IMG/VR virus record: IMGVR_UViG_3300012964_000001
Coordinates: 1-64,000 of that record
Origin: a virus
Strand: one strand, 5' to 3'
Length of the DNA: 64,000 nucleotides
Part shown: in pieces, positions 5,233 to 60,953 of the stretch
How positions within the stretch are numbered: position 1 is the first letter of the stretch
Layout of the letters: the number at the start of each line of letters is the position of its first letter
Translations under genes and position numbers: made by a program
The notes under the pieces: generated by a model
What the model saw: only the letters and a program-made list of their open reading frames with translations
Told to the model about the DNA's origin: nothing
Database searches by the model: none

Positions 5233-5989
5233 GCCCATCACGACGTTCGTGCGCGTCCGTCTGGACGCTCCCCCAGAACTCCCGTTGGAGCTACTCGACC
5301 GCGTCGTTCACCTGGCGCCCACAGTCACCGGCCAGTGCTACGCGCTCGTAGGTGTCGCCAGCAGTGACGTCGACGTGGTGGTCTCGCAGGATGCCTACGA
5401 CCCCCGGGACCCCCGGGACGAGCTAGTAGCCGAGCTCGCGGAGAAGACCGGCAAGTACGATGGTTCCGTGCGCGATCGACTACTGCTGCGTCGCCTGCCT
5501 GGACACCAGACACGCGACCTCCAGACCGGGACGGTCGAGCTCGTCGACTATGACGGCCAGGCCGACCTGGTCATCACCACGGAGGATGGCGCGGCCACAC
5601 GGCGCACCTACCGCCGGTGGACTCACGAGCTGACCGATTCACCCCACGCCGGCGCGATCGTGCGCTGGCACTGGAGGCGGTACTACCCGTTTTTGTCGGA
5701 GGCCGAGATCACTACACTGGCCGATGGATTCGGTGAACGAGCCGCCGGCCTCACATTGGCCGCGGCCAACCGACTCGCATCACGTGAGCTCTATTCAATG
5801 GCACGCGCCGCCGGCTGGCGGAAGCTCACGTTGCGCGAACAGCAGGCCCTAGGGCTCGAGGGGCAATGGCACCGCGACGACGTCGTGGCAGATCGTCGCG
5901 CCGACCAGGCACACCGGTCGGGGTGCGGAGAGCGGACCCTTTTGGCGGCATCAATGGCCGCTCACATCGCCGATTGGATGGACCGATGA
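5213..5989 (+). CDS. hypothetical protein (258 aa; start may be 5225)
   Basis: Long ORF with an ATGA overlap to the next gene at 5986. Confidence 0.6.
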   Translation: MEGNMRKPITTFVRVRLDAPPELPLELLDRVVHLAPTVTGQCYALVGVASSDVDVVVSQDAYDPRDPRDELVAELAEKTGKYDGSVRDRLLLRRLPGHQTRDLQTGTVELVDYDGQADLVITTEDGAATRRTYRRWTHELTDSPHAGAIVRWHWRRYYPFLSEAEITTLADGFGERAAGLTLAAANRLASRELYSMARAAGWRKLTLREQQALGLEGQWHRDDVVADRRADQAHRSGCGERTLLAASMAAHIADWMDR

Positions 5990-17832: not shown

Positions 17833-19270
17833 CGCTAGTTAGGTTATCGAAGCGGGTGTACTCGCTTGAAAACCTGGTCTTCACTACACCAGTCGGACCG
17901 TTGCGCTGCTTGGCGATAATGATCTCGGCGATTCCCCGATCGACGCTCTCGTCCTTGAAGTAGTACTCGTCCCGGTAGATGAACAGGATGGTGTCGGCGT
18001 CCTGTTCGATGGCTCCACTCTCACGGAGGTCGCTCAGCTGCGGACGCTTGTCCTTCGTCGTTCGCGTCTCCACCGATCGATTCAGTTGCGACAAGGCCAT
18101 CACCGGCACCCGGAGTTCCTTTGCCAATTGCTTCAGGCCACGTGACAGCTCGCTGATCTCTTGCTCCCGGCTGTGGGCGTCACGCCTTCCGTGCATCAAT
18201 TGCAGGTAGTCGACAACGACCAATCCTAGCTCATTGGGAAGCCCACAATCGTCCGTCGCCCGAGCAAGCTCAGCCTGAATCCGTCGCACCTTCGCCCGAA
18301 CCTCGAGCAGCGTGATCGCCGGAGTGTCATCGATCCAGATCGGCATACTTCCGACACGCTCCGCCGCATCGGTGAGCTTGCTCCAGTCCTCAGAACGCGG
18401 CTGACCCGAGCGTATGCGCCCGAGGTCAACGTGCCCCTCGCTGGCCATCAGCCGCATACCAAGCTGTTCTTTGGGCATTTCCAGACTGAAGAACGCAACC
18501 CCTTTGCCCGGGGTCGGCTGGATGGGATTTCCAAGCGGGTCAGTATCGAAACCTGTGTTCTTCGGACGAGCGACGTTGACGGCGATATTGATGACCAATG
18601 CACTTTTTCCCATCCCGGGCCTACCTGCGACGATGAACAGGTCCCCTTTGTGCATTCCCGTGGTCTTCCGGTCGATCTCGGTGAACCCAGTCGGTACTCC
18701 CGACACACCACGGCCATTCTGGCTCGCCGCCGAGATTATCTTAAACGATTCAACCATCACGTCTTTGACGGGAACGATTGCCGTTCTGTCGGACGTATGC
18801 GCGATTTCGAAGACCTTCTGTTCGTGCTGGTCGATGTAACGCTGAACGTCCTGGACCTTTCCGTAACCCTCTGCCGCGGTGTTCTGGCATTCTTGGATGA
18901 GCTTGCGCTGACGCCACAGCTCGACCAGTCGCTTGGCGTGCGTCTCGACATTGGCTACCGCAGGCGTCGCATCCACAACCTGAGCGAGGTAGGGGGTGCC
19001 GCCAATCTGCTCAAGCTTCCCGCGGTCCCTAAGCCATCCAGCGATAGACACTTGGTCCACTGGCCTACCGGACTCACGAAGGGACCACGCTCCCTCGAGG
19101 ATCAGCCGGTTGGCATTCGAGTAGCAGTGCTCGGGCCGGAAGAAGCTCGCGACCTCGTCTGCGAGTTCCGCGGACAGCAGGACCGCGGACAGCACCGTGG
19201 CTTCGGCATCTAGGTCCGATGGGGGAACGCGTCCGACCATAGGTCCCGGCTCTGCAGCCTGGTCAGCCAA
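17798..19270 (-). CDS. dnaB: replicative DNA helicase DnaB
   Basis: PPSDLDAEATVLSAVLL, GRPGMGKSAL, VDYLQLM and QLNRSVE. Confidence 0.9.
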   Translation of the reverse strand: MADQAAEPGPMVGRVPPSDLDAEATVLSAVLLSAELADEVASFFRPEHCYSNANRLILEGAWSLRESGRPVDQVSIAGWLRDRGKLEQIGGTPYLAQVVDATPAVANVETHAKRLVELWRQRKLIQECQNTAAEGYGKVQDVQRYIDQHEQKVFEIAHTSDRTAIVPVKDVMVESFKIISAASQNGRGVSGVPTGFTEIDRKTTGMHKGDLFIVAGRPGMGKSALVINIAVNVARPKNTGFDTDPLGNPIQPTPGKGVAFFSLEMPKEQLGMRLMASEGHVDLGRIRSGQPRSEDWSKLTDAAERVGSMPIWIDDTPAITLLEVRAKVRRIQAELARATDDCGLPNELGLVVVDYLQLMHGRRDAHSREQEISELSRGLKQLAKELRVPVMALSQLNRSVETRTTKDKRPQLSDLRESGAIEQDADTILFIYRDEYYFKDESVDRGIAEIIIAKQRNGPTGVVKTRFSSEYTRFDNLTSGEYDELDDYAE

Positions 19271-30421: not shown

Positions 30422-30626
30422 GGGTCCTCGAGCAGTTCGGGCAGTCTGAAACGTCGGCTTCGGGCTCGTTGGGTTCGAACCATGGTAGCTTCACCACTCG
30501 GAGCGTGTCCGGCGGAGGGGTGAAGTTACGATCCATCGGCGGCGCCGGCTCGGTGTCGCGCGTCTCCAGCGGAGGGGGAGGGTAGGAGTGTCCGGCGTTT
30601 GGACCTGGAGTCATTTCGTTAGCCAA
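30402..30626 (-). CDS. hypothetical Pro-rich small protein (74 aa)
   Basis: Co-oriented ORF. Confidence 0.35.
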   Translation of the reverse strand: MANEMTPGPNAGHSYPPPPLETRDTEPAPPMDRNFTPPPDTLRVVKLPWFEPNEPEADVSDCPNCSRTHDGQSR

Positions 30627-31495
30627 TCGAAGAAGGCATCGGACTCGACGTCATCCAACGCGAACAGTGCCTTCCTGAACCTGTCGCGGGGAGCTTCGGG
30701 TATCGCCAACCAGGCCTCTTGGGCTGCCTGCAGGCACGGATGGGGCGCGGGTGCTCGCTTCGGTGCAGGCGCAGCATTCGGCTTCTCTGGCGCCGCCTTG
30801 GTAGGCTTCGGCTGTGCCGCCTTCTTGACCTTCGCCTTCGCCTTCTCGACCTGCTTGACCGGGTCCTTCTCGCGGGCGAGCTCAAGCAGGTCTTGCTGGC
30901 GGTCCTCGACCGGGGTGCCTTCGAGCACCTTCACGGTCTCAGGTTTGAGCGACGCGCCGATCTGGGCGTCCTGCCGGACCGCGCGCTCGGAACGCCCGGT
31001 CTTGGCGGAGGTGTCGGCCACGAAGTCAGCAGTGGCATTTTTTGCCATTGCTGAGTCTTTGGCCGGCTTCGGGTGGTTCCTTCCCCCTGTGGTTCCTCCA
31101 GCCACGCCGGCCCTGGTCTCCGGGTGGAGCTTTTCGTAGATGACCTTCCGCCGAGCAGTAGCGGTTGACCGCTCTAGTACCGTTAGCTCTGCCCGGCAGA
31201 GGTTCTCGTCGATCTCAGCCAAGTCTGCCAGAAGCTTCGGGTCGTACTGGTCGGAGAGCCCATCCCCGCCTTCGAGGTAGGTCACCGGGACGTGCTTCCA
31301 GCCTAACTCTTTCACTGCCTCCAAACGATGGAGACCAGCGACCAGGGCAACCCCATTGACCTCCTGGAGGACCACCAGGGGTTCAAGTAGCCCGACAGTG
31401 AGAATACTGTCCTTCAAGGCCGCCACCCGTTTAGGGTCAACGGGGCGCCGGCCTTTCTGGACCACGATCGATGAAACGAGAACGCCGTTGGACAT
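30611..31495 (-). CDS. ParB/Srx-fold N-terminal domain protein with basic Ala/Lys/Pro-rich C-terminal region
   Basis: GLLEPLVV...LVAGLHRLEAVKELG is the ParB GxxR-type box. ATG (MSNGV) overlaps the upstream stop (TGATG). Confidence 0.7.
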   Translation of the reverse strand: MSNGVLVSSIVVQKGRRPVDPKRVAALKDSILTVGLLEPLVVLQEVNGVALVAGLHRLEAVKELGWKHVPVTYLEGGDGLSDQYDPKLLADLAEIDENLCRAELTVLERSTATARRKVIYEKLHPETRAGVAGGTTGGRNHPKPAKDSAMAKNATADFVADTSAKTGRSERAVRQDAQIGASLKPETVKVLEGTPVEDRQQDLLELAREKDPVKQVEKAKAKVKKAAQPKPTKAAPEKPNAAPAPKRAPAPHPCLQAAQEAWLAIPEAPRDRFRKALFALDDVESDAFFDWLTK

Positions 31496-32448
31496 CAGGG
31501 CAATAGCTCTCGACGATTTGCGAGATAGTACTGGTTGGCTGAATTGTGCTCTTTGAGAGTTCCCAAATTCTCGTGATGCTTCACGTGTCCATAGCAAGCT
31601 CGCAGGATTTTCACGAGTCTCACCGATTGGCTGTCAACCTTTGCTGTCGACCTCTTATCGCCAGAGTCCAGTTGGTTCAGGTACTTTCGCAGTGTCTGCG
31701 CTGGAGACCCAGATGTAATGGCTCCGTCCCACAGAGCTTGAACGAACTCAGAGATAGCTCGCTTGTCCTTCTCCCAAGCAACAACAAAGATCGCGTTCAA
31801 CCACGCATCCCATGGGCGAGGAAAGGAACCGCCTTGACGGTTAAGTATTCCAACAATCCAATCGAGGGCAGCCTTGTGCTTCTCTGCCATCTGATCGTAA
31901 TCATGTTGTGTTGGTGACCCAGTAAAAGCAGTTGCTATGCCCCATAAGGCCCGTATGATGGCTGCCCGGCGATTTCCCTGTGTTATGCCATCAAGTTTCC
32001 ACTGCTCACCGCAGGTCCTGCGGGCCTGCCGATCAAGTACCCGTTGAGCTTCATCGTCTAGGCCAAAGACAATCAAAAATACGGTGGCTTTCCCGGTTTT
32101 CACCACCATCAGAAGACGGTGTTGACCATCAAGTAGCAATCCGTCCTTTCCGAAGCCGAGTCCCTGTGGGGTAATAGGCCAGAAGCCATCTAACCGATCT
32201 CGGCAGTAGGCCTCCAGATTCGCGCTTCGTTCGTCCCTGTTATGCGTGTTCAGGTTCTCCAGCCAGAACGCAGCCAAGCGTGGCGTCACCTTGGCAAATA
32301 GACAGATCGGTTTGCGGGATGTCGGTTCCCAATTGTCGGGAGGGTCATAGACGCCTTCGAATCCTGGGTTCTTATCAAGATATTGCAGAGCATTGCGTGA
32401 CATCATTGTTCTCCTGGTTCCACAGCCTACGGCGTGGCCTAACGCCAC
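31495..32448 (-). CDS. DGQHR-motif (DndB/ParB-like) domain protein
   Basis: GLLLDGQHRLLMV is present. No C-terminal HNH/DUF1524 domain was seen. Confidence 0.6.
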   Translation of the reverse strand: MALGHAVGCGTRRTMMSRNALQYLDKNPGFEGVYDPPDNWEPTSRKPICLFAKVTPRLAAFWLENLNTHNRDERSANLEAYCRDRLDGFWPITPQGLGFGKDGLLLDGQHRLLMVVKTGKATVFLIVFGLDDEAQRVLDRQARRTCGEQWKLDGITQGNRRAAIIRALWGIATAFTGSPTQHDYDQMAEKHKAALDWIVGILNRQGGSFPRPWDAWLNAIFVVAWEKDKRAISEFVQALWDGAITSGSPAQTLRKYLNQLDSGDKRSTAKVDSQSVRLVKILRACYGHVKHHENLGTLKEHNSANQYYLANRRELLP

Positions 32449-41945: not shown

Positions 41946-42719
41946 ATGGCATCGAAGTACTCCAAAACCGAGAAAACCGTCACCACCACGATCAAGCCCG
42001 GCGACCCGGTCATCACCCAGCCCAACACCTTCAGCACCGCGCTGGAGCTCAAAGGGACCGCTCCGCTCATCCAGAACAACTTCAGCCAGAAGGCCATCGA
42101 ACAGATGCTCCGGAAGCACATGGGGTTGGCCGTCACGCGGGAAGTCAAAAAGCCCAGCGACTGCGTGGAAAACGCCACTATCCGGAACGTAAAGGGTGAC
42201 GTCTGCATCCCCCCGATGGCTCTCAAGAAAGCCATGCTGACCGCGGCCAGTGGCGTGAAGACTCTGAAGAAGACCCAGCTCAGGACGTCGATCTACATCG
42301 TCGGCCAGTCGCTTCCGATCAAGTATTCGAAGATGGTCCCCCGCATGGACATGGTGCGGACCAGCGGAATGAGCCGGACCCCGGATGTCCGGTTCCGGCC
42401 GGCGTTCGACGAGTGGTCGGTGCGCGTCGTGATCGAGTACTCCGACACCCTCGCGGTCCAGACCGTGATCGACCTGGTGCAACGGGCCGGCTCGGTGGGA
42501 CTCGGGGAGTGGCGCCCCGAGAAGGACGGCGTCTTCGGGACCTTCAAGATCGAGCGCGCCATCACTCTAATGAAGGAGATCACCGAAGTCCGGAAGGCGT
42601 GCTCGGTGTCTCTGGTACCGCTCGTCATTCCACCGTGGGCGATGGATCTCGAAATCAGCCCGGACTTGATGCGGAGAATTGCGAACAGCAACACTGAAGA
42701 AGATGAGGAATCGGCGTGA
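41946..42719 (+). CDS. hypothetical protein (257 aa)
   Basis: Long ORF with normal amino-acid composition. ATG is preceded by GAGAAGAAAG. Confidence 0.6.
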   Translation: MASKYSKTEKTVTTTIKPGDPVITQPNTFSTALELKGTAPLIQNNFSQKAIEQMLRKHMGLAVTREVKKPSDCVENATIRNVKGDVCIPPMALKKAMLTAASGVKTLKKTQLRTSIYIVGQSLPIKYSKMVPRMDMVRTSGMSRTPDVRFRPAFDEWSVRVVIEYSDTLAVQTVIDLVQRAGSVGLGEWRPEKDGVFGTFKIERAITLMKEITEVRKACSVSLVPLVIPPWAMDLEISPDLMRRIANSNTEEDEESA

Positions 42720-42774
42720 ACTCTTGGGCGCCCAGGATTGCCATGGTGAACGTCTTGGGCGCCTCTCTATTTTT

Positions 42775-43830
42775 GGCAGGCCTGGAATGGCGCGGCGCGG
42801 CCAGGCGAGGACTGGCTGGGTGCGTCCGGTCGAGGCAAATCACGGCAGGCAAGGCCCGGCGAGTCCGGGACTGGAGTGGACGGGCCCGGCGAGGCGTGGC
42901 GCGGACTGGCAATCACGGCAGGCATGGCTCGGACAGGCGGGGCGAGGCGTGGAGCGGTCAGTCCAGGCAAGGCTCGGCAATCACGGCAGGCATGGCGATG
43001 CCTGGCACGGCGAGGCGTGGCGAGGAGCGGCTCGGCAATCACGGCAGGCAAGGCTGGGCCGGGCGAGGCGCGGAACGGTCAGGTTGGGATATCACGGCAG
43101 GCGAGGCGAGGATGTTCATGGACGGGCCAGGCGCGTAATGGCGATGCAATCACGGCAGGCGAGGCAAGGCTGGGCTAGGCCCGGTACGGCGAGGCGAGGC
43201 AATCACGGCAGGCGAGGCGTGGAATGGCACCGGTGGAACGTTCAGGTCAATCAATCACGGCAGGCAAGGCGTGGCGAGGAAAGGTGTGTAGATGCATGGT
43301 ATGGCAATCACGGCAGGCGAGGCATGGCAAGTCCGGGACTGGAGCGGCACGGTCTGGCGAGGCAATCACGGCAGGCGAGGCACGGCGAGGCAAGGCAAGG
43401 CCTGCCAAGGCCAGGCAATCACGGCAGGCGAGGCAAGACTGGGAGAGGCATGGCGAGGATTGGCGCGGCATTCACGGAAGGCAAGGCGAGTCCGGTCCGG
43501 GCAAGGCGTGGACAGGCGCGGAGCGACTCAATCACGGCAGGCAAGGCTGGGCAGGGCGAGGCGTGACGAGGCACGGCGGGGCAATCACGGCAGGCAAGGA
43601 GTGGCTTGGTGCGGAAGGGCCAGGAGCGGACTGGCAATCACGGCAGGCGAGACATGGCGTGTCGGGGACTGGCGATGCCCGGCGAGGCGAGGCATTCACG
43701 GCAGGCGAGGCGCGGCGGTTCCTGGACTGGAGTGGAGCGCTGGGCTGGGCAATCACGGCAGGCAAGGTTGGGCTTGTAATGGCATGGCATGACCGGGCCC
43801 GGAACGGCAATCCCGTCAGGCAACCAAAGG
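42775..43830. repeat. G-rich degenerate tandem array I: about 18 copies of core GGCAATCACGGCAGGCRAGGC
   Basis: CACGG of the core is at 42841, 42914, 42982, 43040, 43093, 43151, 43204, 43256, 43309, 43367, 43420, 43473, 43533, 43586, 43639, 43697 and 43754, plus a decayed copy near 43811. The period is mostly 53 or 58 bp. Confidence 0.9.
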
Positions 43831-43858
43831 CAGCATCATGAACGATTGAGGTAATCAG

Positions 43859-44437
43859 ATGGCACAGAAGAATTCCAAGAAGACCACCAAGAAACCGTAT
43901 GTAGCCCCCAAAATCGAGTACATCGAGAAAAAGGACGCGCTCATGCAGCGCGAGAAAAAGTCCGTGCTCGTCGACCGAGAACTCGGCAAGATCCACAAGG
44001 AACACGGCGTCGTTACGCCGCAGCTCATGATCGAGTCCGCGCGCAACGCGAAGCACCCGCTCCACCGGTACTTCGAATGGGACGACTCGGTTGCGGCACA
44101 GAAGTTCCGACTCGCCCAGGCCCAATCGCTCATCATGGGCAGCAAGTACGTCGCCGTCCTGAACTCGAAAGCAACGGACCCCGTCAACGACCAGCTCGTG
44201 ATTTCGGCCCACCAAGTTCAGGTCAGGAAGTACTTGCCGATCGCCCGAGGAGCCGGGCAGAAGACCCGAGAGGAAGTCCTCGGCGAGGAGGACAGCAGAG
44301 CACGCTTGGTCGAGCAGAAGATCGGCGTACTAAAGGGATGGTGCCGCTCAGTTTCGGACATCGGAGAGCTCGATAGGGTGCGCATTGGAATCGAACGACT
44401 GGTCCAGGAGGCCACGCATCCGATTGCGGCGGAGTGA
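43859..44437 (+). CDS. hypothetical protein with basic N-terminus, embedded between the two repeat arrays
   Basis: ATG preceded by GAGG. Composition is normal, unlike the flanking repeats. Contains HPLHRYFEWDDSVAAQKFRLAQAQSLI. Confidence 0.6.
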   Translation: MAQKNSKKTTKKPYVAPKIEYIEKKDALMQREKKSVLVDRELGKIHKEHGVVTPQLMIESARNAKHPLHRYFEWDDSVAAQKFRLAQAQSLIMGSKYVAVLNSKATDPVNDQLVISAHQVQVRKYLPIARGAGQKTREEVLGEEDSRARLVEQKIGVLKGWCRSVSDIGELDRVRIGIERLVQEATHPIAAE

Positions 44438-44756
44438 TAAACGGCAGGCGAGGCTGGGCCGGGCGAGGCGTGGCGAGGAGCGGCTCGGCAATCACGGCAG
44501 GCAAGGCGCGGAATTGCGAGTCCGGGAATGTTTGGGCTGGGTTGGGAATGGCAATCACGGCAGTCGAGGCTAGGCCGGGCCTGGAGTGGCTGGGCACGGC
44601 GCGGACTGGACAGGCAATCACGGCAGGCACGGATAGGCCTGGCGCGTCTTGGTTGGTCCGGGCCAGGCGCGGAACGTCGAGGACATCACGGCAGGCGAGG
44701 CGCGGCGCGACTAGGACTGGCGATGCGCGGCAAGTCTATTACGGCAGGAAAGGAAC
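44436..44756. repeat. G-rich degenerate tandem array II: 6 further copies of the same core
   Basis: Cores near 44441, 44493, 44556, 44619, 44687 and 44739. The 46-nt stretch 44462-44507 is identical to 43009-43054. Confidence 0.9.
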
Positions 44757-44763
44757 AACACAA

Positions 44764-45252
44764 ATGGCAGCACGAAAAACGTATAAAGGCAGCATGTCTG
44801 ATTTCGTCCGGGAGCACCCGGACCTGACGACGACTGCGCTCGTCGAAGAAGGCAAAAAATACGGGATGAAGCTGAAAGAAACCTTGATCCGTGTCGTCCG
44901 CTGGAAGGAGAAACAAGCCTCCGGCGCCTCCCCCAAGCGCGGCCGACGCAAGGGTGGCTTCACTCGCCCGACGGCGCCGGCTCAGCCGAAGCCCGCGCTA
45001 TTCACCGGGAAGCGACGGGGAAGACCACCGAAGAACCGGGAGGCGACTCAGAATCGCGAGAATCTGACCGTCTACCGTGACTTCGATGGAAACGAGGTCG
45101 TTGCCAAGGATCTCCCCTTCGACAAAGTCGGGAGCCGCCTGCCGCCCCCCGAGCTCGAGTCCACGGCGCGCGAAGCCGACACGTTCTGCCGCATCGTCAC
45201 CAAGATCGGTACCACGAAGGCCCGGGCTCTCTTGGACGAGCTCGAGAAGTGA
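44764..45252 (+). CDS. AT-hook-containing basic protein (putative DNA-binding)
   Basis: KRRGRPPKN is an AT-hook GRP core, and the middle is Lys/Arg-rich. ATG is preceded by AAAGGAA. Confidence 0.55.
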   Translation: MAARKTYKGSMSDFVREHPDLTTTALVEEGKKYGMKLKETLIRVVRWKEKQASGASPKRGRRKGGFTRPTAPAQPKPALFTGKRRGRPPKNREATQNRENLTVYRDFDGNEVVAKDLPFDKVGSRLPPPELESTAREADTFCRIVTKIGTTKARALLDELEK

Positions 45253-47119: not shown

Positions 47120-50100
47120 ATGATCCGTGTCGTACAGTTGTCTGATTCCCATTTTCAGCAGAATCGTCGATTCGACGAGTGCATTCGGATGCATGACCTC
47201 ATCGCCGAGCACGTTGAGCGATCGAAGCCTGACTTGGTGGTCCACAGCGGCGAGCTCTATGATCGTCCATCGACACCGCGGGAGCGTGAGGCTGTCGCTG
47301 AATGGGTCCAGCGCATTGCCACGGTCTGCCCGATTGCAATAGTCCGCGGAAACCCGGTTCACGAGGCCGCACAAGAAACCGAGCATCTACGGCGTCTGAG
47401 CTCTACACATCGGATCTTGGCGGTCGAGACGCCCATGATGATGACCCTAGGGGGTGTCGAGCTCTGCATGTTCCCTGCACCGACCAAGTCGGGTGTGCTC
47501 ACGGCCATCGGCCAGATCGGGATCGAACAGGTCAACCAGGTAACCTCCGAGGCGATGCAGAGCCTTTTGAGATGGATGGGAGACAAAGCTACATCGATAG
47601 GTCTTCCACGCATGTTCGTCGGCCATATGATGGTTCGTGGCTCTCGGACAAGCCATGGGCAGGAACTCATCGGGGCCGACTTAGAGCTAGGTCTAGAAGA
47701 CCTGGAACTGGCGAACTGCGATGCATACGCACTCGGCCATATCCATCTTCACCAAACCTTCGAGGCGTTCGGAAAGCCGATTGTCGCCTATTCAGGGAGT
47801 CCATACAGAACCTCTTGGGGAGAGACCGAAGACAAGGGGTTCATCGACTGGATGTTCAAAGAAACGCTCGATGGTTGGCGTGCAGAGTGGAAGTTCATCA
47901 AGCTACCGGCGACCCGGATGCTGCTCATCGAGCCCGAATGGTCCGGAGACGATTGGGCTCCGGGTCCCGGGTGTCCGACCCTGATGGATCCCGTGGAGGG
48001 ATCAGAAGTCCGTCTGCGCTACCGGTGTGAGAGCTCGCAGCGCACCCAGGCCGCCGCAGGGGCCGCCAAGCTACGGGACGAGCTTCTGTCCCGGGGAGCC
48101 GTCTTGGTGAAGCTTGAGCCCATCATCGAGGTCCACAACGCCGCGCGCGCCCCCGAGATTGCGCTGGCGCGCGGGATGGCCGAGAAGCTCCCGGCATTCT
48201 GGGCCGCCCGGGGTACCACCCCAGAGGAACCCCGCCGGTCCCGACTCATCGAGTTGGCAGGCCAAATCGAGGCCAATACACCCCGCCCGGTGGGCATTTC
48301 GACCGGCGCCGCCCTCCTAGACTGGATCAAGCTCCGGGGAATCGGTCCCTTCAAGGGGACGGTGGAAGTCGACTTTCGCGACCTTCCACCGGGCATCGTG
48401 GCGTTCACGGGTCGGATTGGCAGCGGGAAAACGACTCTGATGGAGGCCTACGCTGCAGCGATGTACCGCCGGCTCCCGACGTCCGAGCGGGGCCTCCTGT
48501 CCAAGATGGCCGTCTCCCGCGACGCGTTCGTGGACGTCGGCATCCAGAACGGGCAGTCCCTGCGCATCGTCCACGCCATCGATGGCGGACAGAAGACCCC
48601 CGGGTGGGAGGTCTCGGTCTATGACCGCGGGGTCGAGTCCGCGGAATCTCTCACCGGGTCGAGCAAAGTATCGGCATTCGACGAGTGGCGGGAGACCCAC
48701 ATGCTGCCCCCGGAGATCTTCCTGGCAGGGCCGTTCCAGGCCCAGGGTGCCAATGCCCTGGTTGCCGCCACGGATTCCGAGAGGGCGTCGATCATTCTCA
48801 GGGCTCTCGGACTCGAGTACTACGAGACCATGGCCGAGACGTTCCGGAAGCGCGCCAGCGCGGCCCGGGAGGAACTCGAGAAGGCCACGGCACGCGTGGA
48901 CGACGAGCGTGCCCGCGGGGGCGACGTCGCTCAGTGCGAGCAGGCGTTGGTCGACGAACGCATGGGTCTTGTCCCATCCCAATGGGCGCTCCAGGTGGCC
49001 CGAGACGCTCTCACGGCCGCCGAGCAGGCGCTCCGTGAGCACTCCAGGGACCAGGAGGCCTACCTGGAGGCCGTCGGCGCGCGCGGGGAACTCGAGTCCA
49101 AGATCCGGGACAACCGCGCCCAGTACGCCGACTTGACCGAGCGGATGACGAACAACCAGAAGCGTCTGGCTCAGAAGCCGAAGATCCAGGCCGCTGTCAA
49201 ACGCTCAGACGAGCTTCGGGTGAGCATTTCCGCTGCCGAGGCGGAGCTCGCACGGCTCACCGCCGAGCACCAGGGGCTCCAGCGGGAAGAGCTAGCTTTC
49301 CGGCAGGAATCCGCTGGTCACAAGATTTCATCCGGGTCGGCGCAAGAGCGGGCCGAGTCCGCCAAGCGGCGCCTAGGCCGAAAGCCGGAGATTGACGCCG
49401 CCGCGGCCAGCGTTCCGGGGCTTCGCTCCGCCTGGGAAGAGTCCTTGAAAGCGGCTGAGGAAACGGTGCATAGGGTCCGCGGAGACGTGGCGGCTGCCGA
49501 AGCCGAGCTCGAACGGCTGCGCGGCTTGCGGGTGGTTGGGTCAGAGGACCGCATCATCGGACTCCGCTCTGGTCTCGAACAGGTAGTGTCATTGGCAATC
49601 ATAGGGCGCGGCACCCATGAATGCGCACAGGGTACCCTGCACCGTGACGATGAGGCAGCCACGTTGGCGCTGGAACTGCCGACTCAGATCACCCGCCAAG
49701 CCGCCGAGGTCACTCGGCTCCGTAGGCTGCTGGAGACCGTCACCCAACAGTCCGGGGAGAATCGGGACGAGGCCGCGCGGGCGCTCTCCAAAGCCGAGCA
49801 ACTGGCGGCTGAGTCAAAGCACCTGGATGCCGACCAGCAGGAACTCGAGTCCGCGCTTGGAGACCTACAGCGCTACCAACAGGCCGAGCGCGCCTGCATC
49901 GCCAAGTCCACCGATACGATCCAGCGTCGCACGAAAGTCCAAGAACTACGGGACTCCCTGGAATTCACTGAGCGCTCTTCCATGGAAGAGCTTCAAAAGC
50001 TAGCACCGGTCGTCGCCTACAAGGAGCAGGCGGACAAGGCGGAGGCCCGAATCGAGCAGCTAGAACGGGAGCTTGCGCGTATCGACTCCGAGCATACCGA

Positions 50101-50845
50101 ACTCACCCAAAAACTTGCCCGAGGTCCGGCGGTGGTCCTTCCCCCTCCACCACCGCCGGATGTCTCGGGCCTACGGATTTCCGTAGGCAACGCCGAAAGC
50201 CAAGTGCAGGCCGTGACTACCGCAATCGCCCGCGCCGAGCAACGGCTTGATATGGCCCGGGAGAGCGCCGGTCGGGTCCTGGAGCTCGAGGCCGCTCGGG
50301 CACAACGGGCGGAAGCGCAGGCCGATTGTCAGCGTCTGGCTGAAGACCTCGGCAAGAAGGGTCTCCAAAGCGCCGAGATTGACGCCGTGGGTGCAGAGCT
50401 CACGGCAGACACGAACGACTTGCTTCATTCCTGCCTCGGAAGCACGTTTACGGTCTCGGTGGAGACAACCCGCACCGTTGACAAGGGCAAGCGTGAGGTC
50501 GATGCCTTGCCGATTATAGTCTTCAACTCTGACGACGGATACGAAGGCGAGGTCCGGACCTACTCCGGAGGTCAGAAGGCTCTGATCGGGGAAGCGCTGG
50601 CGCTCGCGCTGACGATTCTGTCGTGCCGGCGCGCTGGAATCGACCATGGGTTGACACTCATACGTGATGAACCAACGGCATCGTTGTCCCCTGAAGATGC
50701 GCGCGCATATGTTTCTATGATGCGCGCCGCTTCCGCGATCGTTCACGCACGACACGTTCTCTGCATCACGCACAACGACGCTGTCAGTAACGCTGCAGAC
50801 GTCCAGGTGAAGGTAGCCAACGGAAGCGTGGAGGTAATCCAGTGA
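47120..50845 (+). CDS. fused SbcD-SbcC (Mre11-Rad50-like) nuclease/ATPase, 1241 aa
   Basis: The N-terminal phosphoesterase has LSDSHF, VHSGELYD, VRGNPVHE and ALGHIHLHQ. Then come Walker A FTGRIGSGKTT, a long coiled-coil, ABC signature YSGGQKALIGEALALAL, Walker B LIRDEPTASL and H-loop CITHND. Confidence 0.85.
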   Translation: MIRVVQLSDSHFQQNRRFDECIRMHDLIAEHVERSKPDLVVHSGELYDRPSTPREREAVAEWVQRIATVCPIAIVRGNPVHEAAQETEHLRRLSSTHRILAVETPMMMTLGGVELCMFPAPTKSGVLTAIGQIGIEQVNQVTSEAMQSLLRWMGDKATSIGLPRMFVGHMMVRGSRTSHGQELIGADLELGLEDLELANCDAYALGHIHLHQTFEAFGKPIVAYSGSPYRTSWGETEDKGFIDWMFKETLDGWRAEWKFIKLPATRMLLIEPEWSGDDWAPGPGCPTLMDPVEGSEVRLRYRCESSQRTQAAAGAAKLRDELLSRGAVLVKLEPIIEVHNAARAPEIALARGMAEKLPAFWAARGTTPEEPRRSRLIELAGQIEANTPRPVGISTGAALLDWIKLRGIGPFKGTVEVDFRDLPPGIVAFTGRIGSGKTTLMEAYAAAMYRRLPTSERGLLSKMAVSRDAFVDVGIQNGQSLRIVHAIDGGQKTPGWEVSVYDRGVESAESLTGSSKVSAFDEWRETHMLPPEIFLAGPFQAQGANALVAATDSERASIILRALGLEYYETMAETFRKRASAAREELEKATARVDDERARGGDVAQCEQALVDERMGLVPSQWALQVARDALTAAEQALREHSRDQEAYLEAVGARGELESKIRDNRAQYADLTERMTNNQKRLAQKPKIQAAVKRSDELRVSISAAEAELARLTAEHQGLQREELAFRQESAGHKISSGSAQERAESAKRRLGRKPEIDAAAASVPGLRSAWEESLKAAEETVHRVRGDVAAAEAELERLRGLRVVGSEDRIIGLRSGLEQVVSLAIIGRGTHECAQGTLHRDDEAATLALELPTQITRQAAEVTRLRRLLETVTQQSGENRDEAARALSKAEQLAAESKHLDADQQELESALGDLQRYQQAERACIAKSTDTIQRRTKVQELRDSLEFTERSSMEELQKLAPVVAYKEQADKAEARIEQLERELARIDSEHTELTQKLARGPAVVLPPPPPPDVSGLRISVGNAESQVQAVTTAIARAEQRLDMARESAGRVLELEAARAQRAEAQADCQRLAEDLGKKGLQSAEIDAVGAELTADTNDLLHSCLGSTFTVSVETTRTVDKGKREVDALPIIVFNSDDGYEGEVRTYSGGQKALIGEALALALTILSCRRAGIDHGLTLIRDEPTASLSPEDARAYVSMMRAASAIVHARHVLCITHNDAVSNAADVQVKVANGSVEVIQ

Positions 50846-52171: not shown

Positions 52172-54094
52172 ATGAATACCATGCACACGACAATCGATAG
52201 CGCCCTCGGCGCCACCCGGAGTGGGGAAGCTACTGGCTTGACGCTCGACAATCATGACGCCCCAGTGGCGTCACACGTTGCACCCGCGAAAGCGGTAGGG
52301 CGGACTCCACCGCCCGAAGTCGAACAAGTCAAGACAGATGCCACCCAGGTAGCACCGGGGGCCCTATCGATAGTCCGTGCCACTTGTCGAATCCTGCTGG
52401 ATGTGGCGGTGCTCGCCGCAGACCGACGCGAACACATCGCCAAACGATGCGGGGGTACCGAAGGCGGGTGCAAGGCCTGCCAGCTACAGCAGGAGCTTCG
52501 GGGAGCCCAACGAGAAGCCGTTCGGGCCGCTAATGCGGCGATGCGGGTTCATTGGCGTGCCGACGCCGATATCTTGGATCAGGCGCTTCTTGCCACCGGC
52601 GCTCCGCCGGCAAAGGCCGCGGACTGGAAGCGCTTCGCCCAGATTGACCCAGAGCGGCTGGTTCGCGCGGTATCCCCGGGACTCAGCAGGGGAGAGACGA
52701 AGCTTGCAGCAGGTGAGCTTGTGAAGACCAGTAAGGCCGATAAGACCTATTTGTCGACCTATCGCCTAGTCCGTGTGATCGCCCCAGATCTCCCAGGTGG
52801 TATCGCGTCGGCCATCTCGGATTCCGTTCAGTCCAAGTGGCAGCGTGAACGGTTCGCCTCTCTGGTCCGCTGCACCAAGTCTCCACCGCACTATACGGGG
52901 ACAATGCCACTGCCGCTGCGCGCCGCCGATTGCGCACTGACCCATTGTGTGGATGATGACTACGAATTCACCTTTGCTATTCGCGGTGGCCTCGGGCACC
53001 GATGGACGCTCCCAATCTCCGCACGCGACGGTGCCACCAAGAAACGCTATCTGGCGAAGTTACTGTCCGAACTCGCTGGCTCGAACGTGAAGTTCGGAGC
53101 CTGCCAGATCTCTGAGGACCGTATGCGACCAGGTCGCTGGTTCGTCCGTATCGCCTACACCCGGCGAGTCGATGCAGCTGTCGTGGGCAAGAACGACTGC
53201 GCAATCCATCTAGGCATCGTCAACTTCATGGCTGCCTTAGGCAGCGATGGAGAACGTTTCATCATCGAGGGCAACGACATTCGGACTCACCTTGCGCAGA
53301 TCCAGGCACGCCGGAGAAGCTATCAGCGACAGATCAAATACAGCAACCGGACCGGCCGCGGTAGAGAAGCAGCGTTGGCGGCGAGTCGAAAACTAGCAGG
53401 TGCACACGAACGTTGGGTCGACACGACCATCCAACGGATCGCACGATCCATCGCAAACTGGGTCAAAGAGCACGGATACAGCCGCGTCTACATGCCGGAT
53501 TTTACCCGAGTACGGGACTCCGTCCCGGAGCTTCTAGAGCGTAGTGACTCGGTCTACCAGTGGCTCCAAGAGTGGCCATACTACCGGATGCAGCAGGCCA
53601 TACGGTCTTGCCTCGAGGAGGTAGGCATCGGTTGCAATCACGAATGCTCGGGTAGCCGAGCTAGGCCCCCCACATGCAGCTGTATCGCGGAACGTGGTAG
53701 CGGAGTAGATGATGGTGTCCTATCGCGTCATGCTTGCCCGGCATGCGGAGAGACCGAGGCGCTAATCGAAGACCTCGGGATCAGGACCTTCCGCTGCGAA
53801 AGCTGTGGTCACCATGGTCCTCTGGACGTAGTATTGGCCGAGCTAATCCTCGCTCGCGGTCGCGAGCGCCGAGGTGACTCGGACTCGCTTATAGGAGAAA
53901 ACGGCTCGAAGCTTGGACCACCAAAGGGCAAAAACGGAGGCGCTCGCAAAGCGTCACGTAAGTACCCGAAATCAAAAGGTCCTCGCCGGGCGGGGTCAGA
54001 AGAGAGTTCAGTGTGCAACGTGATTGGAGCTATGGCCCGCCGACCAGCGGCGCAGCAGCTCCTTCGTCAGAAGAGAGTTCAGTGTGCAACGTGA
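52172..54094 (+). CDS. compact TnpB/Cas12-fold CRISPR-associated effector candidate (type V-like) with non-canonical RuvC motifs; ORF runs into the array
   Basis: WED-like GRWFVRIAY. RuvC-I-like CAIHLGIVNFMAALGSDG, a helical insert, then RuvC-II-like YSRVYMPDF. Zinc ribbon CPACG...FRCESCG, followed by GPLDVVLAELILARG in place of D-x-NAA-x-NI. About 607 codons precede repeat 1, and the stop TGA 54092-54094 lies inside repeat 2. Confidence 0.75.
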   Translation: MNTMHTTIDSALGATRSGEATGLTLDNHDAPVASHVAPAKAVGRTPPPEVEQVKTDATQVAPGALSIVRATCRILLDVAVLAADRREHIAKRCGGTEGGCKACQLQQELRGAQREAVRAANAAMRVHWRADADILDQALLATGAPPAKAADWKRFAQIDPERLVRAVSPGLSRGETKLAAGELVKTSKADKTYLSTYRLVRVIAPDLPGGIASAISDSVQSKWQRERFASLVRCTKSPPHYTGTMPLPLRAADCALTHCVDDDYEFTFAIRGGLGHRWTLPISARDGATKKRYLAKLLSELAGSNVKFGACQISEDRMRPGRWFVRIAYTRRVDAAVVGKNDCAIHLGIVNFMAALGSDGERFIIEGNDIRTHLAQIQARRRSYQRQIKYSNRTGRGREAALAASRKLAGAHERWVDTTIQRIARSIANWVKEHGYSRVYMPDFTRVRDSVPELLERSDSVYQWLQEWPYYRMQQAIRSCLEEVGIGCNHECSGSRARPPTCSCIAERGSGVDDGVLSRHACPACGETEALIEDLGIRTFRCESCGHHGPLDVVLAELILARGRERRGDSDSLIGENGSKLGPPKGKNGGARKASRKYPKSKGPRRAGSEESSVCNVIGAMARRPAAQQLLRQKRVQCAT

Positions 54095-54901
54095 TTGGAG
54101 GGACCTCTACCGCGGCCGAAATTTCGACATCGATCAAGTCAGAAGAGAGTTCAGTGTGCAACGTGATTGGAGGTTGCATGAATACCGTCCAGGACGAGGC
54201 CGACCGAATGTCAGAAGAGAGTTCAGTGTGCAACGTGATTGGAGGTAGCGCGGGGCATCGCCCACCATGACGACCGGCATGGTCAGAAGAGAGTTCAGTG
54301 TGCAACGTGATTGGAGGGACATCCGCGGAGGTCGAAATCTCTGCATCTAGCAGTCAGAAGAGAGTTCAGTGTGCAACGTGATTGGAGGGAGGTGACGCCC
54401 GACGGAGTGCGGCCGGTACCCCCCGTCAGAAGAGAGTTCAGTGTGCAACGTGATTGGAGGTTCGTAATCGAGGTGGAGCACCTTCCCTTGCCGGACCGTC
54501 AGAAGAGAGTTCAGTGTGCAACGTGATTGGAGGTTGCGCCAAGCAAAGGGGACCTGGACGGCGTTCGGCTGGTCAGAAGAGAGTTCAGTGTGCAACGTGA
54601 TTGGAGGCAGGATGGAGGATGCCGCGGGCGATGGAATCGACGAGCTGTCAGAAGAGAGTTCAGTGTGCAACGTGATTGGAGGCTCGGTGGGAGCTCGTTC
54701 AGCGAGCTAAGAAGAGAATGTTAGAAGAGACTTCCATGTGCAACGTGGTTGGAGGTGGATACACTCGAGCGACCCATGCAAAATGTCGGATGGTCAGAAG
54801 AGGTTCCGGTTCCAAGGCAAAGGCCGATCGGGCTGGCGCAGTCAGAAGAGAGTTTCAGTGTGCAACGTGATTGGAGGTCCCATGTGCAACGTGAAGGGAG
54901 G
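53995..54901 (+). CRISPR. CRISPR array: 10 x 36-bp repeat GTCAGAAGAGAGTTCAGTGTGCAACGTGATTGGAGG plus decayed distal copies
   Basis: Repeats start at 53995, 54066, 54138, 54210, 54282, 54353, 54425, 54498, 54572 and 54647; only repeat 1 differs, at its last base. Spacers are unique and 35-39 bp long. Decayed copies are 54720-54755 (5 mismatches), 54793-54807 (truncated), 54841-54877 (1-nt insertion) and a 3' half-copy at 54881-54901. Confidence 0.95.
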
Positions 54902-60198: not shown

Positions 60199-60953
60199 CA
60201 GTACACAACCCCTGTTTCTACGTCCATGTGCCCGACCCGCACCCGCATGTCGACGGCGAAGCGCTTACCGACACGCCGCGCTCGCTCGCAGAAGTACAGA
60301 TCTTGCGTGAATGCCATGATGCCCTTGTCCGGTATGATGTCGTTGACCGTGACGAACCACGGCGGATCGATCTCGCGGAATAGGTCCATGCGCCATAGCG
60401 CGCAGCCCATGCCGATGCCGTTGACCTCCATGATCGTACCGGCTTCGACCGCATGGGCGACGTCACGCGGTTGCATCGTCAGCACTCCGGTCCGGGCGTA
60501 CTCCGCGGGATCCCCGTAGGCCATCGGCATGTTCCAGTCGCCCTTGGTGAAGTAGAGGCCCGAGACGGCGTCGTAGCCGCCCCAGTCGATGGTCTCGAGC
60601 AACCGGATGTGCGCGTCGGGAGGCGGCAGGTTGTCGTCCTCCATGGTCATGATGTACTTCCACTTGGATAGGTACGGATCCTTCAGGATGCGGCCCACCA
60701 TCTCGGTGTAGGCGTGCCCGACCTCATCACCCTCCGTGAAGGTCAGCCATCGTTTCTGGTTCATCGGCGCGATCAGCCCGATCCAGCTCCCAATCACCTT
60801 CGGGTCGATGAGGCCCCGCGAGGGAACGAGCTGGATGGTGCTGCAGTCTTTGAACGTGGATCCGTGTAGCAGCTCGACGCGCTCGAATCCCAGCGGACTC
60901 AGCGCGTCGACTACCGAGGGCATGTCCAGCATCTGCTCGGCGCGACCCGACAT
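60198..60953 (-). CDS. GT-A-fold glycosyltransferase-like protein (tentative)
   Basis: IMTMEDDNLPP is a DxD-like motif. ATG overlaps the stop of the collagen-like gene. Confidence 0.45.
   Translation of the reverse strand: MSGRAEQMLDMPSVVDALSPLGFERVELLHGSTFKDCSTIQLVPSRGLIDPKVIGSWIGLIAPMNQKRWLTFTEGDEVGHAYTEMVGRILKDPYLSKWKYIMTMEDDNLPPPDAHIRLLETIDWGGYDAVSGLYFTKGDWNMPMAYGDPAEYARTGVLTMQPRDVAHAVEAGTIMEVNGIGMGCALWRMDLFREIDPPWFVTVNDIIPDKGIMAFTQDLYFCERARRVGKRFAVDMRVRVGHMDVETGVVY

What the first reader, a model, noticed from the sequence alone, without database searches (positions are those of the whole stretch)
42775..44756. About 1.4 kb of strand-asymmetric, G-rich degenerate tandem repeats (24 copies of GGCAATCACGGCAGGCRAGGC) flanking one small gene
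Seen directly: there are 18 copies in 42775-43830 and 6 in 44436-44756, separated only by gene 43859-44437. The array is followed by an AT-hook protein gene. The core is conserved, while the 30-50-nt linkers are related GGC/AGG-rich sequence rather than unique spacers. The period is mostly 53 or 58 bp, and 53 bp is about five helical turns. The + strand is very T-poor and G-rich, so several frames on both strands are open here, which produces the nested ORFs in the track. A 46-nt stretch is identical between the arrays (43009-43054 and 44462-44507). Inference: this looks like an array of protein-binding sites. Candidates are a partition centromere like sopC of F (two ParB-fold genes are present at 30.6-32.4 kb), replication iterons, or a pac region. 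It could also be an R-loop-prone, G-rich transcribed origin.
Basis: partly seen in the sequence, partly recalled or inferred. Interest (0 to 1): 0.7.

Follow-up and report, generated by a model that had tools for sequence, protein, structure and literature searches.

The report
Phage VIPR guide-RNA array (vrRNAs)
The G-rich repeats are best explained as a two-part array of about 23 guide RNAs of a VIPR system, a CRISPR-like, RNA-guided DNA-silencing weapon of phages first described in 2026 preprints, so the finding is real but belongs to a kind that is now known.

Summary
There are 18 + 5 copies of the core ATCACGGCAGG, all on the + strand, spaced 52-73 nt apart (mostly 53 or 58). They flank gene 43859-44437, and none is expected by chance.

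The interpretation (centromere, iterons, pac site or R-loop origin) is not supported. Each unit parses as GGCA + 9-13 pentamers GGYNN + TCAC. This is the grammar of VIPR guide RNAs (vrRNAs: 9-16 YNNGG repeats, GGY fixed, NN variable; bioRxiv 10.64898/2026.04.26.720920 and .720927).

The gene just upstream (41946-42719) is a Vipr homolog. Its predicted fold matches Cas7-type RAMPs, and its profile matches SUSP1 Vipr (PDB 36pp), with the thumb and G-loop residues that read GG conserved. The 192-aa gene inside the array is a conserved accessory (vap-like) protein of unknown fold, unrelated to SUSP1 vap1.

Of 119 IMG/VR contigs found by the DNA pattern alone, 88 carry this gene. Every array next to the gene lies on its sense strand, and 96 of 99 testable loci also encode Vipr. 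Cultured phages (Mycobacterium phage Saal, Cyanophage Cy-LDV1) carry the same module.

No natural target of the guides was found, and no guide matches the window itself. Verdict: a new member of a known kind, with a compact, tail-less, unusually large array.

The parts
41946..42719 (+). vipr gene: 257-aa Cas7-like RAMP protein (PHROG phrog_4652), predicted to coat the guide RNAs with one protomer per pentamer
   Evidence: The family profile hits PDB 36pp 'SUSP1 Vipr protein' at E=3.3e-5. hhalign against SUSP1 Vipr gives probability 95.6%, E=1.3e-8. The AlphaFold model has pLDDT 86. Its best PDB fold matches are all Cas7-type RAMPs (Csm3 6xn3_F E=3.6e-7, Cmr4, type VII Cas7), with 107 hits at E<=1e-3. 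R151, E188, W189 and R190 are invariant and align with SUSP1 R138, D177, W178 and R179.
42775..43814 (+). vrRNA array 1: 18 head-to-tail guide units, each GGCA + 9-13 x GGYNN + TCAC. Unit starts: 42775, 42844, 42917, 42985, 43043, 43096, 43154, 43207, 43259, 43312, 43370, 43423, 43476, 43536, 43589, 43642, 43700, 43757
   Evidence: Parsing. 19 of the 23 units in the two arrays are exactly 8+5n nt long.
43815..43858 (+). degenerate array remnant that runs into the ribosome-binding site of the next gene
   Evidence: In relatives too, arrays end about 25-35 nt before a start codon.
43859..44437 (+). vap-like accessory gene: 192 aa, PHROG phrog_15946, conserved HPLHxYFEWDD motif, no known fold
   Evidence: PHROG hit E=3.4e-17. 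No Pfam or NCBIfam hit. 5847 cluster representatives at E<=1e-3. Model pLDDT 81 with no PDB fold match. Arrays lie next to it in 107 of 119 loci. Unrelated to SUSP1 vap1.
44438..44742 (+). vrRNA array 2: 5 guide units (starts 44443, 44496, 44559, 44622, 44690), same grammar as array 1
   Evidence: Shares an identical 46-nt stretch with array 1.
44743..44763 (+). array remnant (GGCA GGAAA GGAAC...) that doubles as the ribosome-binding region of the AT-hook gene
44764..45252 (+). downstream neighbour: 162-aa AT-hook protein. Probably not part of the system
   Evidence: RGRP motif present. No homolog next to any of the 119 related loci.

Best explanation
This is a VIPR (Viral Interference Programmable Repeat) locus of an uncultured phage on a contig of about 112 kb. 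The published mechanism is as follows. The array is transcribed from the + strand, probably together with vipr and the vap-like gene. Vipr protomers polymerise along each guide, one per pentamer, and hold the GGY bases. The two variable bases of each pentamer stay exposed. These NN dinucleotides pair with double-stranded DNA that reads NNxNNx... (the '1-nt skip' rule), forming a gapped R-loop triplex that blocks transcription of a competing phage, satellite or prophage. Shown here: the Vipr homology and fold, the guide grammar, the strand lock, the three-way synteny across many viruses, faster change at NN than at GGY, and the absence of self-targets. Inferred from the papers and not shown here: transcription, processing into about 23 separate guides, RNP formation, silencing, and what the targets are. 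The invariant GGCAA-TCAC-GGCA junction is inferred to be the boundary or handle between guides.
For: Grammar: the units are GGCA + 9-13 GGYNN + TCAC. At the triplet position GGC occurs 119 times, GGT 11 and GGA 33 out of 190, while all 16 dinucleotides occur at NN. Across 176 related arrays (70 kb), GGC-to-GGC spacing is 5 nt in 6014 cases and 4 nt in 994, and in 925 of those 994 the intervening base is A. Cores are spaced 44, 49, 54 or 59 nt apart, which is 9-12 units. The paper defines vrRNAs as 9-16 YNNGG repeats. Protein. Association: starting from the vap-like protein, most of 27 IMG/VR loci have an adjacent array. Starting from the DNA pattern alone, 88 of 119 loci carry the vap-like gene, and no array next to the gene lies on the opposite strand. 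Vipr is present in 96 of 99 loci with enough flanking sequence. Cultured phages carry the same module. Variability between related arrays, substitutions per site: G1 1.2%, G2 2.4%, Y3 7.6%, N4 21.8%, N5 25.6%. No self-target: best matches are 62-78% of NN positions, the same as for shuffled guides; the paper reports the same for its systems. No sigma-70-type promoter and no + strand terminator was found within 41.3-45.4 kb.
Against: No natural target was found. There were 0 exact hits for three long guides in IMG/VR and for two of them in metagenomes, and only one chance-level hit in genomes. About 31% of pentamers lack a pyrimidine at position 3 (GGA 17%), although the SUSP1 pocket excludes purines. 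Four of the 23 units are out of register, so some units may be decaying. There is no ~40-nt structured 3' tail like that of the characterised type II vrRNAs. Sequence homology to SUSP1 Vipr covers only the C-terminal third, so H17 and K33 could not be checked. Expression was not tested. The reference work consists of preprints.
Confidence: 0.9

Rival explanations
1. A double-stranded DNA array of protein-binding sites: a partition centromere like sopC or parC, replication iterons, or a pac site.
For: Tandem direct repeats with a conserved core. A ParB_N gene at 30611-31597 and a DnaB helicase at 17798-19270 are present in the window.
Against: The ParB_N gene is 11 kb away on the other strand. 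No ParA, Rep or terminase gene is adjacent. In more than 100 other viral contigs the arrays travel with Vipr and the vap-like gene, and always on their sense strand. The core is not palindromic. There is no AT-rich region (T 11%). The pattern of fixed GG with free NN on a 5-nt lattice is explained by the Vipr-RNA structure.
Confidence: 0.03
2. An R-loop-prone, G-rich transcribed replication origin or recombination hotspot.
For: The non-template strand is 43% G with GG clusters every 5 nt. The neighbours are recombination and repair genes: an exonuclease, a DHH phosphoesterase and an SbcCD fusion.
Against: The neighbouring recombination genes are not conserved next to the arrays in relatives, whereas Vipr and the vap-like gene are. 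Cy-LDV1 carries the same arrays and has a lambda O-type replication gene elsewhere. This idea does not explain why NN varies while GG is fixed.
Confidence: 0.03
3. A translated low-complexity protein. Public gene calls place 131-aa and 205-aa ORFs inside array 1.
For: Several frames are open on both strands, and an automatic gene caller called ORFs there.
Against: Unit lengths of 53 or 58 nt and the 4-nt GGCA and TCAC elements shift the reading frame at every unit, so no single frame is conserved. The open frames follow from the low T content. Related arrays change length in 5-nt steps.
Confidence: 0.01
4. A decaying or non-functional relic of a VIPR array, maintained only by repeat dynamics.
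For: Degenerate pentamers (GGA, GTC, TGC and GAC make up about 31%) and four out-of-register units. No targets were found.
Against: 19 of 23 units keep perfect register, and the junction GGCAATCACGGCAGG is almost invariant. vipr and the vap-like gene are intact, with their key residues conserved. The paper notes that internal degeneracy is common in vrRNAs.
Confidence: 0.05

Closest known systems
Type II VIPR system of Escherichia phage SUSP1 (bioRxiv 10.64898/2026.04.26.720920 and 10.64898/2026.04.26.720927; PDB 36pp)
   Same: A small RAMP protein with conserved thumb and G-loop residues. Guides are built from tandem pentamers with fixed GGY and variable NN, 9-13 repeats per guide. A two-gene locus (vipr plus an accessory gene) is flanked by guide-encoding intergenic regions on the same strand, inside a phage genome, with no self-targets.
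   Different: SUSP1 has 4 separate vrRNAs of about 100 nt. They use GGT pentamers, and each has a ~40-nt hairpin/pseudoknot tail and its own upstream AT-rich segment. The window has 23 contiguous units of 52-73 nt (mostly 53 or 58), using GGC pentamers and joined only by GGCAA-TCAC-GGCA. The accessory protein is unrelated to vap1. The window's Vipr is 257 aa against 195 aa, and they align only over the C-terminal part. GGA is tolerated at 17% of triplets.
[quoted passage not shown]
   Same: Contiguous arrays in which the end of one guide marks the start of the next. The 4-nt GGCA unit seen in 176 related arrays could be that overlap point.
   Different: The figure is not available to me, so the match is inferred from its legend only. 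The paper does not list this architecture among those it confirmed by sequencing. The window adds an extra TCAC element at each junction.
Class 1 CRISPR arrays and Cas7 backbone filaments
   Same: A RAMP protein polymerises along a guide RNA and flips out bases periodically. The array holds many guides and is directed at mobile elements. The fold match is to Csm3, Cmr4 and Cas7.
   Different: There are no repeat-spacer units, no Cas1/Cas2 and no contiguous spacer. The information is spread over dinucleotides on a 5-nt lattice.
TRAP-binding sites in the Bacillus trp leader (from my own knowledge)
   Same: Triplets repeated with 2-3 nt spacers and read by a protein oligomer on RNA.
   Different: TRAP sites are a regulatory target rather than a guide, and the protein fold is unrelated.

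Membership tests
VIPR system | A Vipr protein with the RAMP fold (RRM core, G-loop, thumb) is encoded at the locus | tested here: met
   Model pLDDT 86. Top PDB fold hits are all Cas7-type RAMPs, probability 1.00, with 107 hits at E<=1e-3. The profile hits SUSP1 Vipr at E=3.3e-5. hhalign probability 95.6%.
VIPR system | Residues that read the two guanines are conserved (SUSP1 R138 in the thumb; D177, W178, R179 in the G-loop) | tested here: met
   They align with R151, E188 (D to E), W189 and R190, all invariant in 37 family members. H17 and K33 lie outside the aligned part and were not tested.
VIPR system | vrRNAs consist of tandem YNNGG (GGY/NN) pentamers, 9-16 per guide | tested here: met
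   23 units of 8-13 pentamers (9-13 in the 19 regular units). The first two positions are GG in 86% of pentamers and the triplet is GGY in 68%. The 5-nt lattice holds across 70 kb of related arrays.
VIPR system | NN positions are hypervariable while GGY is conserved | tested here: met
   All 16 dinucleotides are used within the window. Between related arrays the rates are 22-26% at N4/N5 and 1-8% at G1/G2/Y3. Caveat: lattice alignment can pair non-orthologous units. The 95%-identical pair L121/L235 gives 17/92 against 0/141.
VIPR system | An invariant 3' tail caps each guide | tested here: inconclusive
   There is an invariant junction GGCAA-TCAC-GGCA of about 13 nt, but no ~40-nt structured tail as in SUSP1. 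The paper says architectures differ between types.
VIPR system | An adjacent vipr-accessory (vap) gene | tested here: inconclusive
   The 192-aa gene is syntenic with Vipr in 96 of 99 loci, so it is a vap by position. It is not related to SUSP1 vap1. Sequences of the other vap families were not available to me.
VIPR system | Guides lie in intergenic regions on the same strand as vipr, and the locus is in a virus | tested here: met
   The contig also carries phage-type genes.
VIPR system | Guides do not match their own genome under the 1-nt skip rule | tested here: met
   Best self-matches are 62-78% of NN positions, equal to shuffled guides.
VIPR system | Natural targets (NNx code) lie in competing mobile elements | tested here: inconclusive
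   No hit above background in 2.1 Mb of fetched loci. There were 0 exact hits in IMG/VR and in metagenomes. One genome hit, in Steroidobacter, is judged to be chance. Only exact matches could be searched.
VIPR system | vrRNAs are expressed, processed and bound by Vipr, and they silence targets | not testable with these tools
   This needs sRNA-seq, pull-downs and reporter assays.
Plasmid or phage partition centromere (sopC/parC type) | Repeats lie next to a parA-parB (or parM-parR) operon, and each repeat carries an inverted-repeat binding site | tested here: not met
   No par genes are adjacent. The only ParB_N gene is 11 kb away on the minus strand. The core is not palindromic.
CRISPR array | Identical repeats of 23-47 nt separated by unique spacers | tested here: not met
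   The 'spacers' are themselves a GGYNN lattice, and the conserved element is only about 13-21 nt long. A true CRISPR array lies elsewhere, at 53995-54755.
Replication origin iterons | Iterons beside an initiator gene and an AT-rich unwinding element | tested here: not met
   No initiator gene is adjacent. T content is 11-13% throughout.

The most novel reading that the evidence does not exclude
This clade may be a VIPR subtype not yet characterised, or not yet classified. It combines a Vipr of about 250 aa, an accessory protein family (phrog_15946, FEWDD motif) with no detectable fold relatives, and contiguous tail-less arrays punctuated only by a 4-nt GGCA (here GGCAA-TCAC-GGCA). If so, guide boundaries would be set by a processing or phasing mechanism different from the tailed type II vrRNAs. 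The array tolerates GGA triplets, and the closest relative L091 uses mostly GGA, which suggests a relaxed position-3 pocket. The same phage also carries a Cas12f-type CRISPR locus 8 kb downstream, so one virus would field both the proposed ancestor and the descendant of RNA-guided defence.
Probability: 0.3. Interest if true: 0.6.

Novelty: new member of a known kind. Interest (0 to 1): 0.45.

Why it matters
VIPR was described only in 2026 and has been characterised experimentally mainly for type II (SUSP1 and the P. fulva prophage).

- **Size of the array.** This locus holds about 23 guides in 1.4 kb with almost no inter-guide sequence. It is a useful test case for how guide boundaries are set without a structured tail.
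- **Breadth of the clade.** The accompanying survey gives at least 119 IMG/VR contigs, plus Mycobacterium Cluster F-type phages such as Saal, several Gordonia phages that carry the two genes (arrays not inspected in detail), and Cyanophage Cy-LDV1. The clade is therefore widespread and present in cultured, tractable phages.
- **Annotation.** In those phages the two genes are annotated as hypothetical proteins, and in the assembly this window comes from ORFs were called inside array 1.
- **A practical recognition rule.** A 5-nt GGY lattice, punctuated by GGCAGG every 44-59 nt, on the sense strand beside phrog_4652 and phrog_15946 genes.
- **Co-residence with CRISPR.** Having a Cas12f CRISPR array in the same phage bears on the proposed VIPR-to-CRISPR evolutionary link.

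Tried and rejected
- **Rfam** at gathering thresholds and a tRNA scan of the window: nothing.
- **Exact 16-mer core scan of IMG/VR:** only single, chance-like matches, so no close copy of this array is there.
- **Megablast of 24 kb against cultured phages:** no match.
- **First literature searches by description** (pentanucleotide repeats, Cluster F repeats, Cy-LDV1): nothing relevant. The link came only from the PDB profile hit.
- **The 192-aa protein:** Pfam and NCBIfam gave nothing, and PHROGs gave only a family of unknown function. The PDB profile search gave nothing significant, with a best E of 0.23. Foldseek against the PDB gave a best E of 1.8, with MarR/TcaR-type winged-helix proteins among the insignificant top hits. 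BFVD returned only uncharacterised phage proteins.
- **Ideas considered before the identification and dropped:** CsrA or TRAP-like sponge RNA, clusters of Chi-like sites, arrays of SD-like ribosome standby sites, G-quadruplex or R-loop origin, terminase pac site, and SSAP loading sites.
- **Target search:** self, 2.1 Mb of fetched loci, three IMG/VR scans, two metagenome scans and two genome scans. The only hit was Steroidobacter agaridevorans, 22 of 24 nt. It lies at the 3' end of an M28 peptidase gene in housekeeping context, its skip bases are not at wobble positions, and about one hit is expected by chance for the 20 searched bases. I rejected it.
- **Complementarity to the CRISPR repeat:** the junction (CAATCACG) and the 3' end of the neighbouring CRISPR repeat (CGTGATTG) are complementary over 8 nt. 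My rough chance estimate is 1%. It is too short for an anti-repeat, and I did not pursue it.
Full report
**1. The observation**

The region is as described. The 21-mer GGCAATCACGGCAGGCRAGGC has 21 matches at up to 3 mismatches. All are on the + strand and all lie between 42835 and 44701; no match occurs in 100 shuffles. The 11-nt core ATCACGGCAGG occurs 18 times in 42839-43810 and 5 times in 44491-44738, spaced 52-73 nt apart. Most spacings are 53 or 58, and they differ from one another in steps of 5 nt. Tandem Repeats Finder reports only fragments, with periods of 5, 10, 15 and 53, because the copies are too diverged.

The two blocks are separated only by the 192-aa ORF 43859-44437 and are followed by a gene whose product carries an RGRP AT-hook motif. 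The 46-nt identity between the blocks is exact. G is 43% and T is 11-13%.

**2. Anatomy**

Cut at the cores, each unit reads GGCA, then 9-13 pentamers, then TCAC. 19 of the 23 units have a length of exactly 8+5n. Across those units the first three positions of the pentamer are GGC 119 times, GGT 11 times and GGA 33 times out of 190. All 16 dinucleotides occur at the last two positions. The conserved core is the junction between units.

**3. Relatives found from the protein**

The 192-aa protein belongs to PHROG phrog_15946, of unknown function. It is a large family, with 5847 cluster representatives at E<=1e-3. A search of IMG/VR with this protein gave 27 loci at 28-49% identity. In most of them the only G-rich, 5-nt-periodic stretch in about 12 kb lies directly beside the homolog, on its sense strand.

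The arrays all share the same features: GGCNN pentamers, a recurrent GGCAGG(C) punctuation, and an end about 25-35 nt before a start codon.

**4. The reverse test**

I scanned IMG/VR with a pure DNA pattern (GGCAGGC followed by five GGC triplets on the 5-nt lattice). An HMM of the 192-aa family finds a member in 88 of these 119 loci. Most of the remaining 31 have the array at a contig end.

Over all 119 gene-bearing loci, the array lies upstream of the gene in 33, downstream in 59, on both sides in 15, and is not adjacent by my threshold in 12. In no case does an array next to the gene lie on the opposite strand.

Pooled over 176 arrays (70 kb), the GGC-to-GGC spacing is 5 nt in 6014 cases and 4 nt in 994. 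In 925 of those 994 the extra base is A. The cores are spaced 44, 49, 54 or 59 nt apart, which is 9-12 units.

**5. The second partner and the identification**

The gene just upstream of the array (41946-42719, 257 aa, phrog_4652) is also syntenic. A plain phmmer search finds it in 63 loci. With an HMM it is found on the same strand in 96 of the 99 loci that have at least 900 nt of upstream sequence.

A profile of this family hits one solved structure, PDB 36pp, 'SUSP1 Vipr protein', at E=3.3e-5. That name led to two 2026 bioRxiv preprints from the Doudna laboratory. They describe Viral Interference Programmable Repeat systems as follows:
- **Components.** A small RAMP protein (Vipr), an accessory gene (vap), and vrRNAs made of 9-16 YNNGG repeats followed by an invariant tail. 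GGY is conserved and NN is hypervariable.
- **Assembly.** One Vipr protomer binds each repeat and sequesters the GGY bases.
- **Targeting.** The NN bases pair with double-stranded DNA that reads NNxNNx, on either strand and without a PAM.
- **Outcome.** Transcription of competing phages, satellites or prophages is silenced.
- **Diversity.** Seven types are reported, with differing array architectures. One is a 'staggered' array in which the end of one guide is the start of the next.

**6. Tests of membership**

- *Fold.* The AlphaFold model of the 257-aa protein has pLDDT 86. Its best PDB fold matches are all Cas7-type RAMPs (Csm3, Cmr4, type VII Cas7) at probability 1.00, with 107 hits at E<=1e-3.
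- *Sequence.* hhalign against the SUSP1 Vipr sequence, taken from the phage genome, gives probability 95.6% and E=1.3e-8 over the thumb and G-loop.
- *Key residues.* The SUSP1 residues that hold the two guanines (R138, D177, W178, R179) align with R151, E188, W189 and R190. All four are invariant in 37 family members.
- *Variability.* Between related arrays, substitutions per site are 1.2%, 2.4% and 7.6% at G1, G2 and Y3, against 21.8% and 25.6% at N4 and N5. The caveat is that a lattice can align non-orthologous units. The 95%-identical pair L121/L235 avoids that problem and gives 0/141 against 17/92.
- *Self-targets.* No guide matches the window itself better than shuffled guides do (62-78% of NN positions). 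The paper reports the same for its systems.
- *Transcription signals.* No sigma-70-type promoter and no + strand terminator interrupts 41.3-45.4 kb. This fits co-transcription, but it is weak evidence.

**7. What differs from the characterised system**

In SUSP1 the locus is vrRNA1, vipr, vap1, then three more vrRNAs. Each vrRNA is about 100 nt, uses GGT pentamers, carries a ~40-nt hairpin tail, and is separated from the next by AT-rich sequence.

In the window, 23 units follow each other without gaps and are joined only by GGCAA-TCAC-GGCA. This may correspond to the 'staggered' arrays of the paper's fig. S18, but I could read only the legend.

The 192-aa protein is unrelated to SUSP1 vap1 (hhalign probability 0.2%). 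It has no fold relative in the PDB. In BFVD it matches only uncharacterised phage proteins. By its position it is a vap, but which of vap2-6 it is, if any, could not be determined.

GGA makes up 17% of triplets here. The closest relative, L091, uses mostly GGA. The SUSP1 pocket, by contrast, excludes purines at position 3.

**8. Targets**

I applied the published 1-nt skip rule to all 23 guides.
- Nothing exceeded the shuffled background in 2.1 Mb of fetched loci.
- Exact patterns from the three longest guides found nothing in IMG/VR.
- Two of them found nothing in JGI metagenomes.
- In 596 Gb of genomes, one pattern found nothing and one found a single site, in Steroidobacter agaridevorans.

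That site matches 22 of 24 guide positions. However, it straddles the stop codon of an M28 peptidase gene in housekeeping context, and its skip bases are not at wobble positions. About one such hit is expected by chance for the 20 bases searched. I treat it as chance. The targets remain unknown, and only exact matches could be searched.

**9. Context**

The window is part of a 111,741-bp metagenomic contig (ENA ERZ27227668). It carries a DnaB helicase, one ParB_N protein, an exonuclease, a DHH phosphoesterase, an SbcCD fusion and a collagen-like protein. About 8 kb downstream of the VIPR locus lie a Cas12f-like effector gene and a CRISPR array of 11 repeats.

Cultured phages carry the same vipr and vap-like gene pair, annotated as hypothetical proteins:
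- Mycobacterium phage Saal, genes 51 and 52, with an array just upstream of gene 51.
- Cyanophage Cy-LDV1, g34 and g33, with arrays on both sides of g33 as in this window.
- Gordonia phage UmaThurman, gp39 and gp41.

**10. Verdict**

The region is a VIPR guide-RNA array with its vipr and vap-like genes. It is a new member of a kind described in 2026, notable for its size, its compact tail-less architecture, an accessory protein of unknown fold, and its presence alongside a CRISPR-Cas12f locus in the same phage.

Expression, processing, RNP formation, silencing and the identity of the targets are all inferred, not shown.

Noticed in passing
window 52172-54094 (+) and 53995-54755 (degenerate copies to about 54900): A Cas12f-like effector gene: TnpB/OrfB RuvC domain, with PDB 9i8y Cas12f1 at E=1.6e-16. 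It is followed by a CRISPR array of 11 repeats (GTCAGAAGAGAGTTCAGTGTGCAACGTGATTGGAGG, 36 nt) with unique 35-39-nt spacers. No Cas1, Cas2 or Cas4 was detected nearby. The 640-aa ORF runs about 100 nt into the first repeats. One phage therefore carries both VIPR and CRISPR.
   Followed up: partly
window 42908-42923 (and every other junction) compared with the CRISPR repeat at 54066-54101: The vrRNA junction contains CAATCACG. This is the exact complement of CGTGATTG near the 3' end of the CRISPR repeat. It is only 8 nt, and my rough chance estimate is about 1%. It is too short for a typical tracrRNA anti-repeat.
   Followed up: no
window 42862-42880, 43332-43350, 43657-43670, 43716-43733, 44519-44530: Several guide units share a sub-string such as AGTCCGGGACTGGAG(T/C)GG. 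It contains the small palindrome AGTCC-G-GGACT and non-GGY triplets (GTC, GGA). These units may be recent duplicates, may target variants of one sequence, or may carry a small structural element.
   Followed up: no
L118 8885-9280 and 9366-9983 (window about 42743-43138 and 43224-43841): The public gene calls for this contig place 131-aa and 205-aa ORFs inside array 1. These are almost certainly artefacts of the T-poor composition.
   Followed up: partly
L121 (Mycobacterium phage Saal NC_023580) 3935-4230; genes 51 and 52: Saal gene 51 is a Vipr homolog and gene 52 a vap-like homolog. Both are annotated as hypothetical. A GGCNN array lies just upstream, and the annotated start of gene 51 (locus position 4174) falls inside the array, so that start is probably called too early. 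The related Mycobacterium phages listed share the gene pair.
   Followed up: partly
L122 (Cyanophage Cy-LDV1 BK059895) 4680-4870 and 5475-5630: Two GGCNN/GGCAGGC arrays flank the vap-like gene g33, and a Vipr homolog (g34) lies upstream. This is the same layout as in the window, in an assembled lambda-like cyanophage.
   Followed up: partly
L091 4850-5050 and 6540-6660: The closest relative of the 192-aa protein (47% identity) has arrays built mostly of GGANN pentamers, with ACGGCAGGA cores. This suggests a clade whose Vipr accepts a purine at position 3.
   Followed up: no
window 47120-50845 (+): A single 1241-aa ORF fuses an SbcD-like phosphoesterase (Metallophos) to an SbcC/Rad50-like ATPase (AAA_23, SMC_N).
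   Followed up: no
L242 2756-2790 (Steroidobacter agaridevorans NZ_BLJO01000004.1): A site matches 22 of 24 guide positions of the unit at 42917-42984 under the 1-nt skip rule. It lies at the 3' end of an M28 peptidase gene, about 115-145 nt upstream of an EF-hand gene. I judged it to be chance. However, the genus has a GC content that, to my knowledge, is similar to the window's, so it is a weak host lead.
   Followed up: yes
window 60953-63328 (-): A 791-aa protein with extensive collagen triple-helix repeats (Pfam Collagen, E=5e-67), possibly a fibre protein.
   Followed up: no
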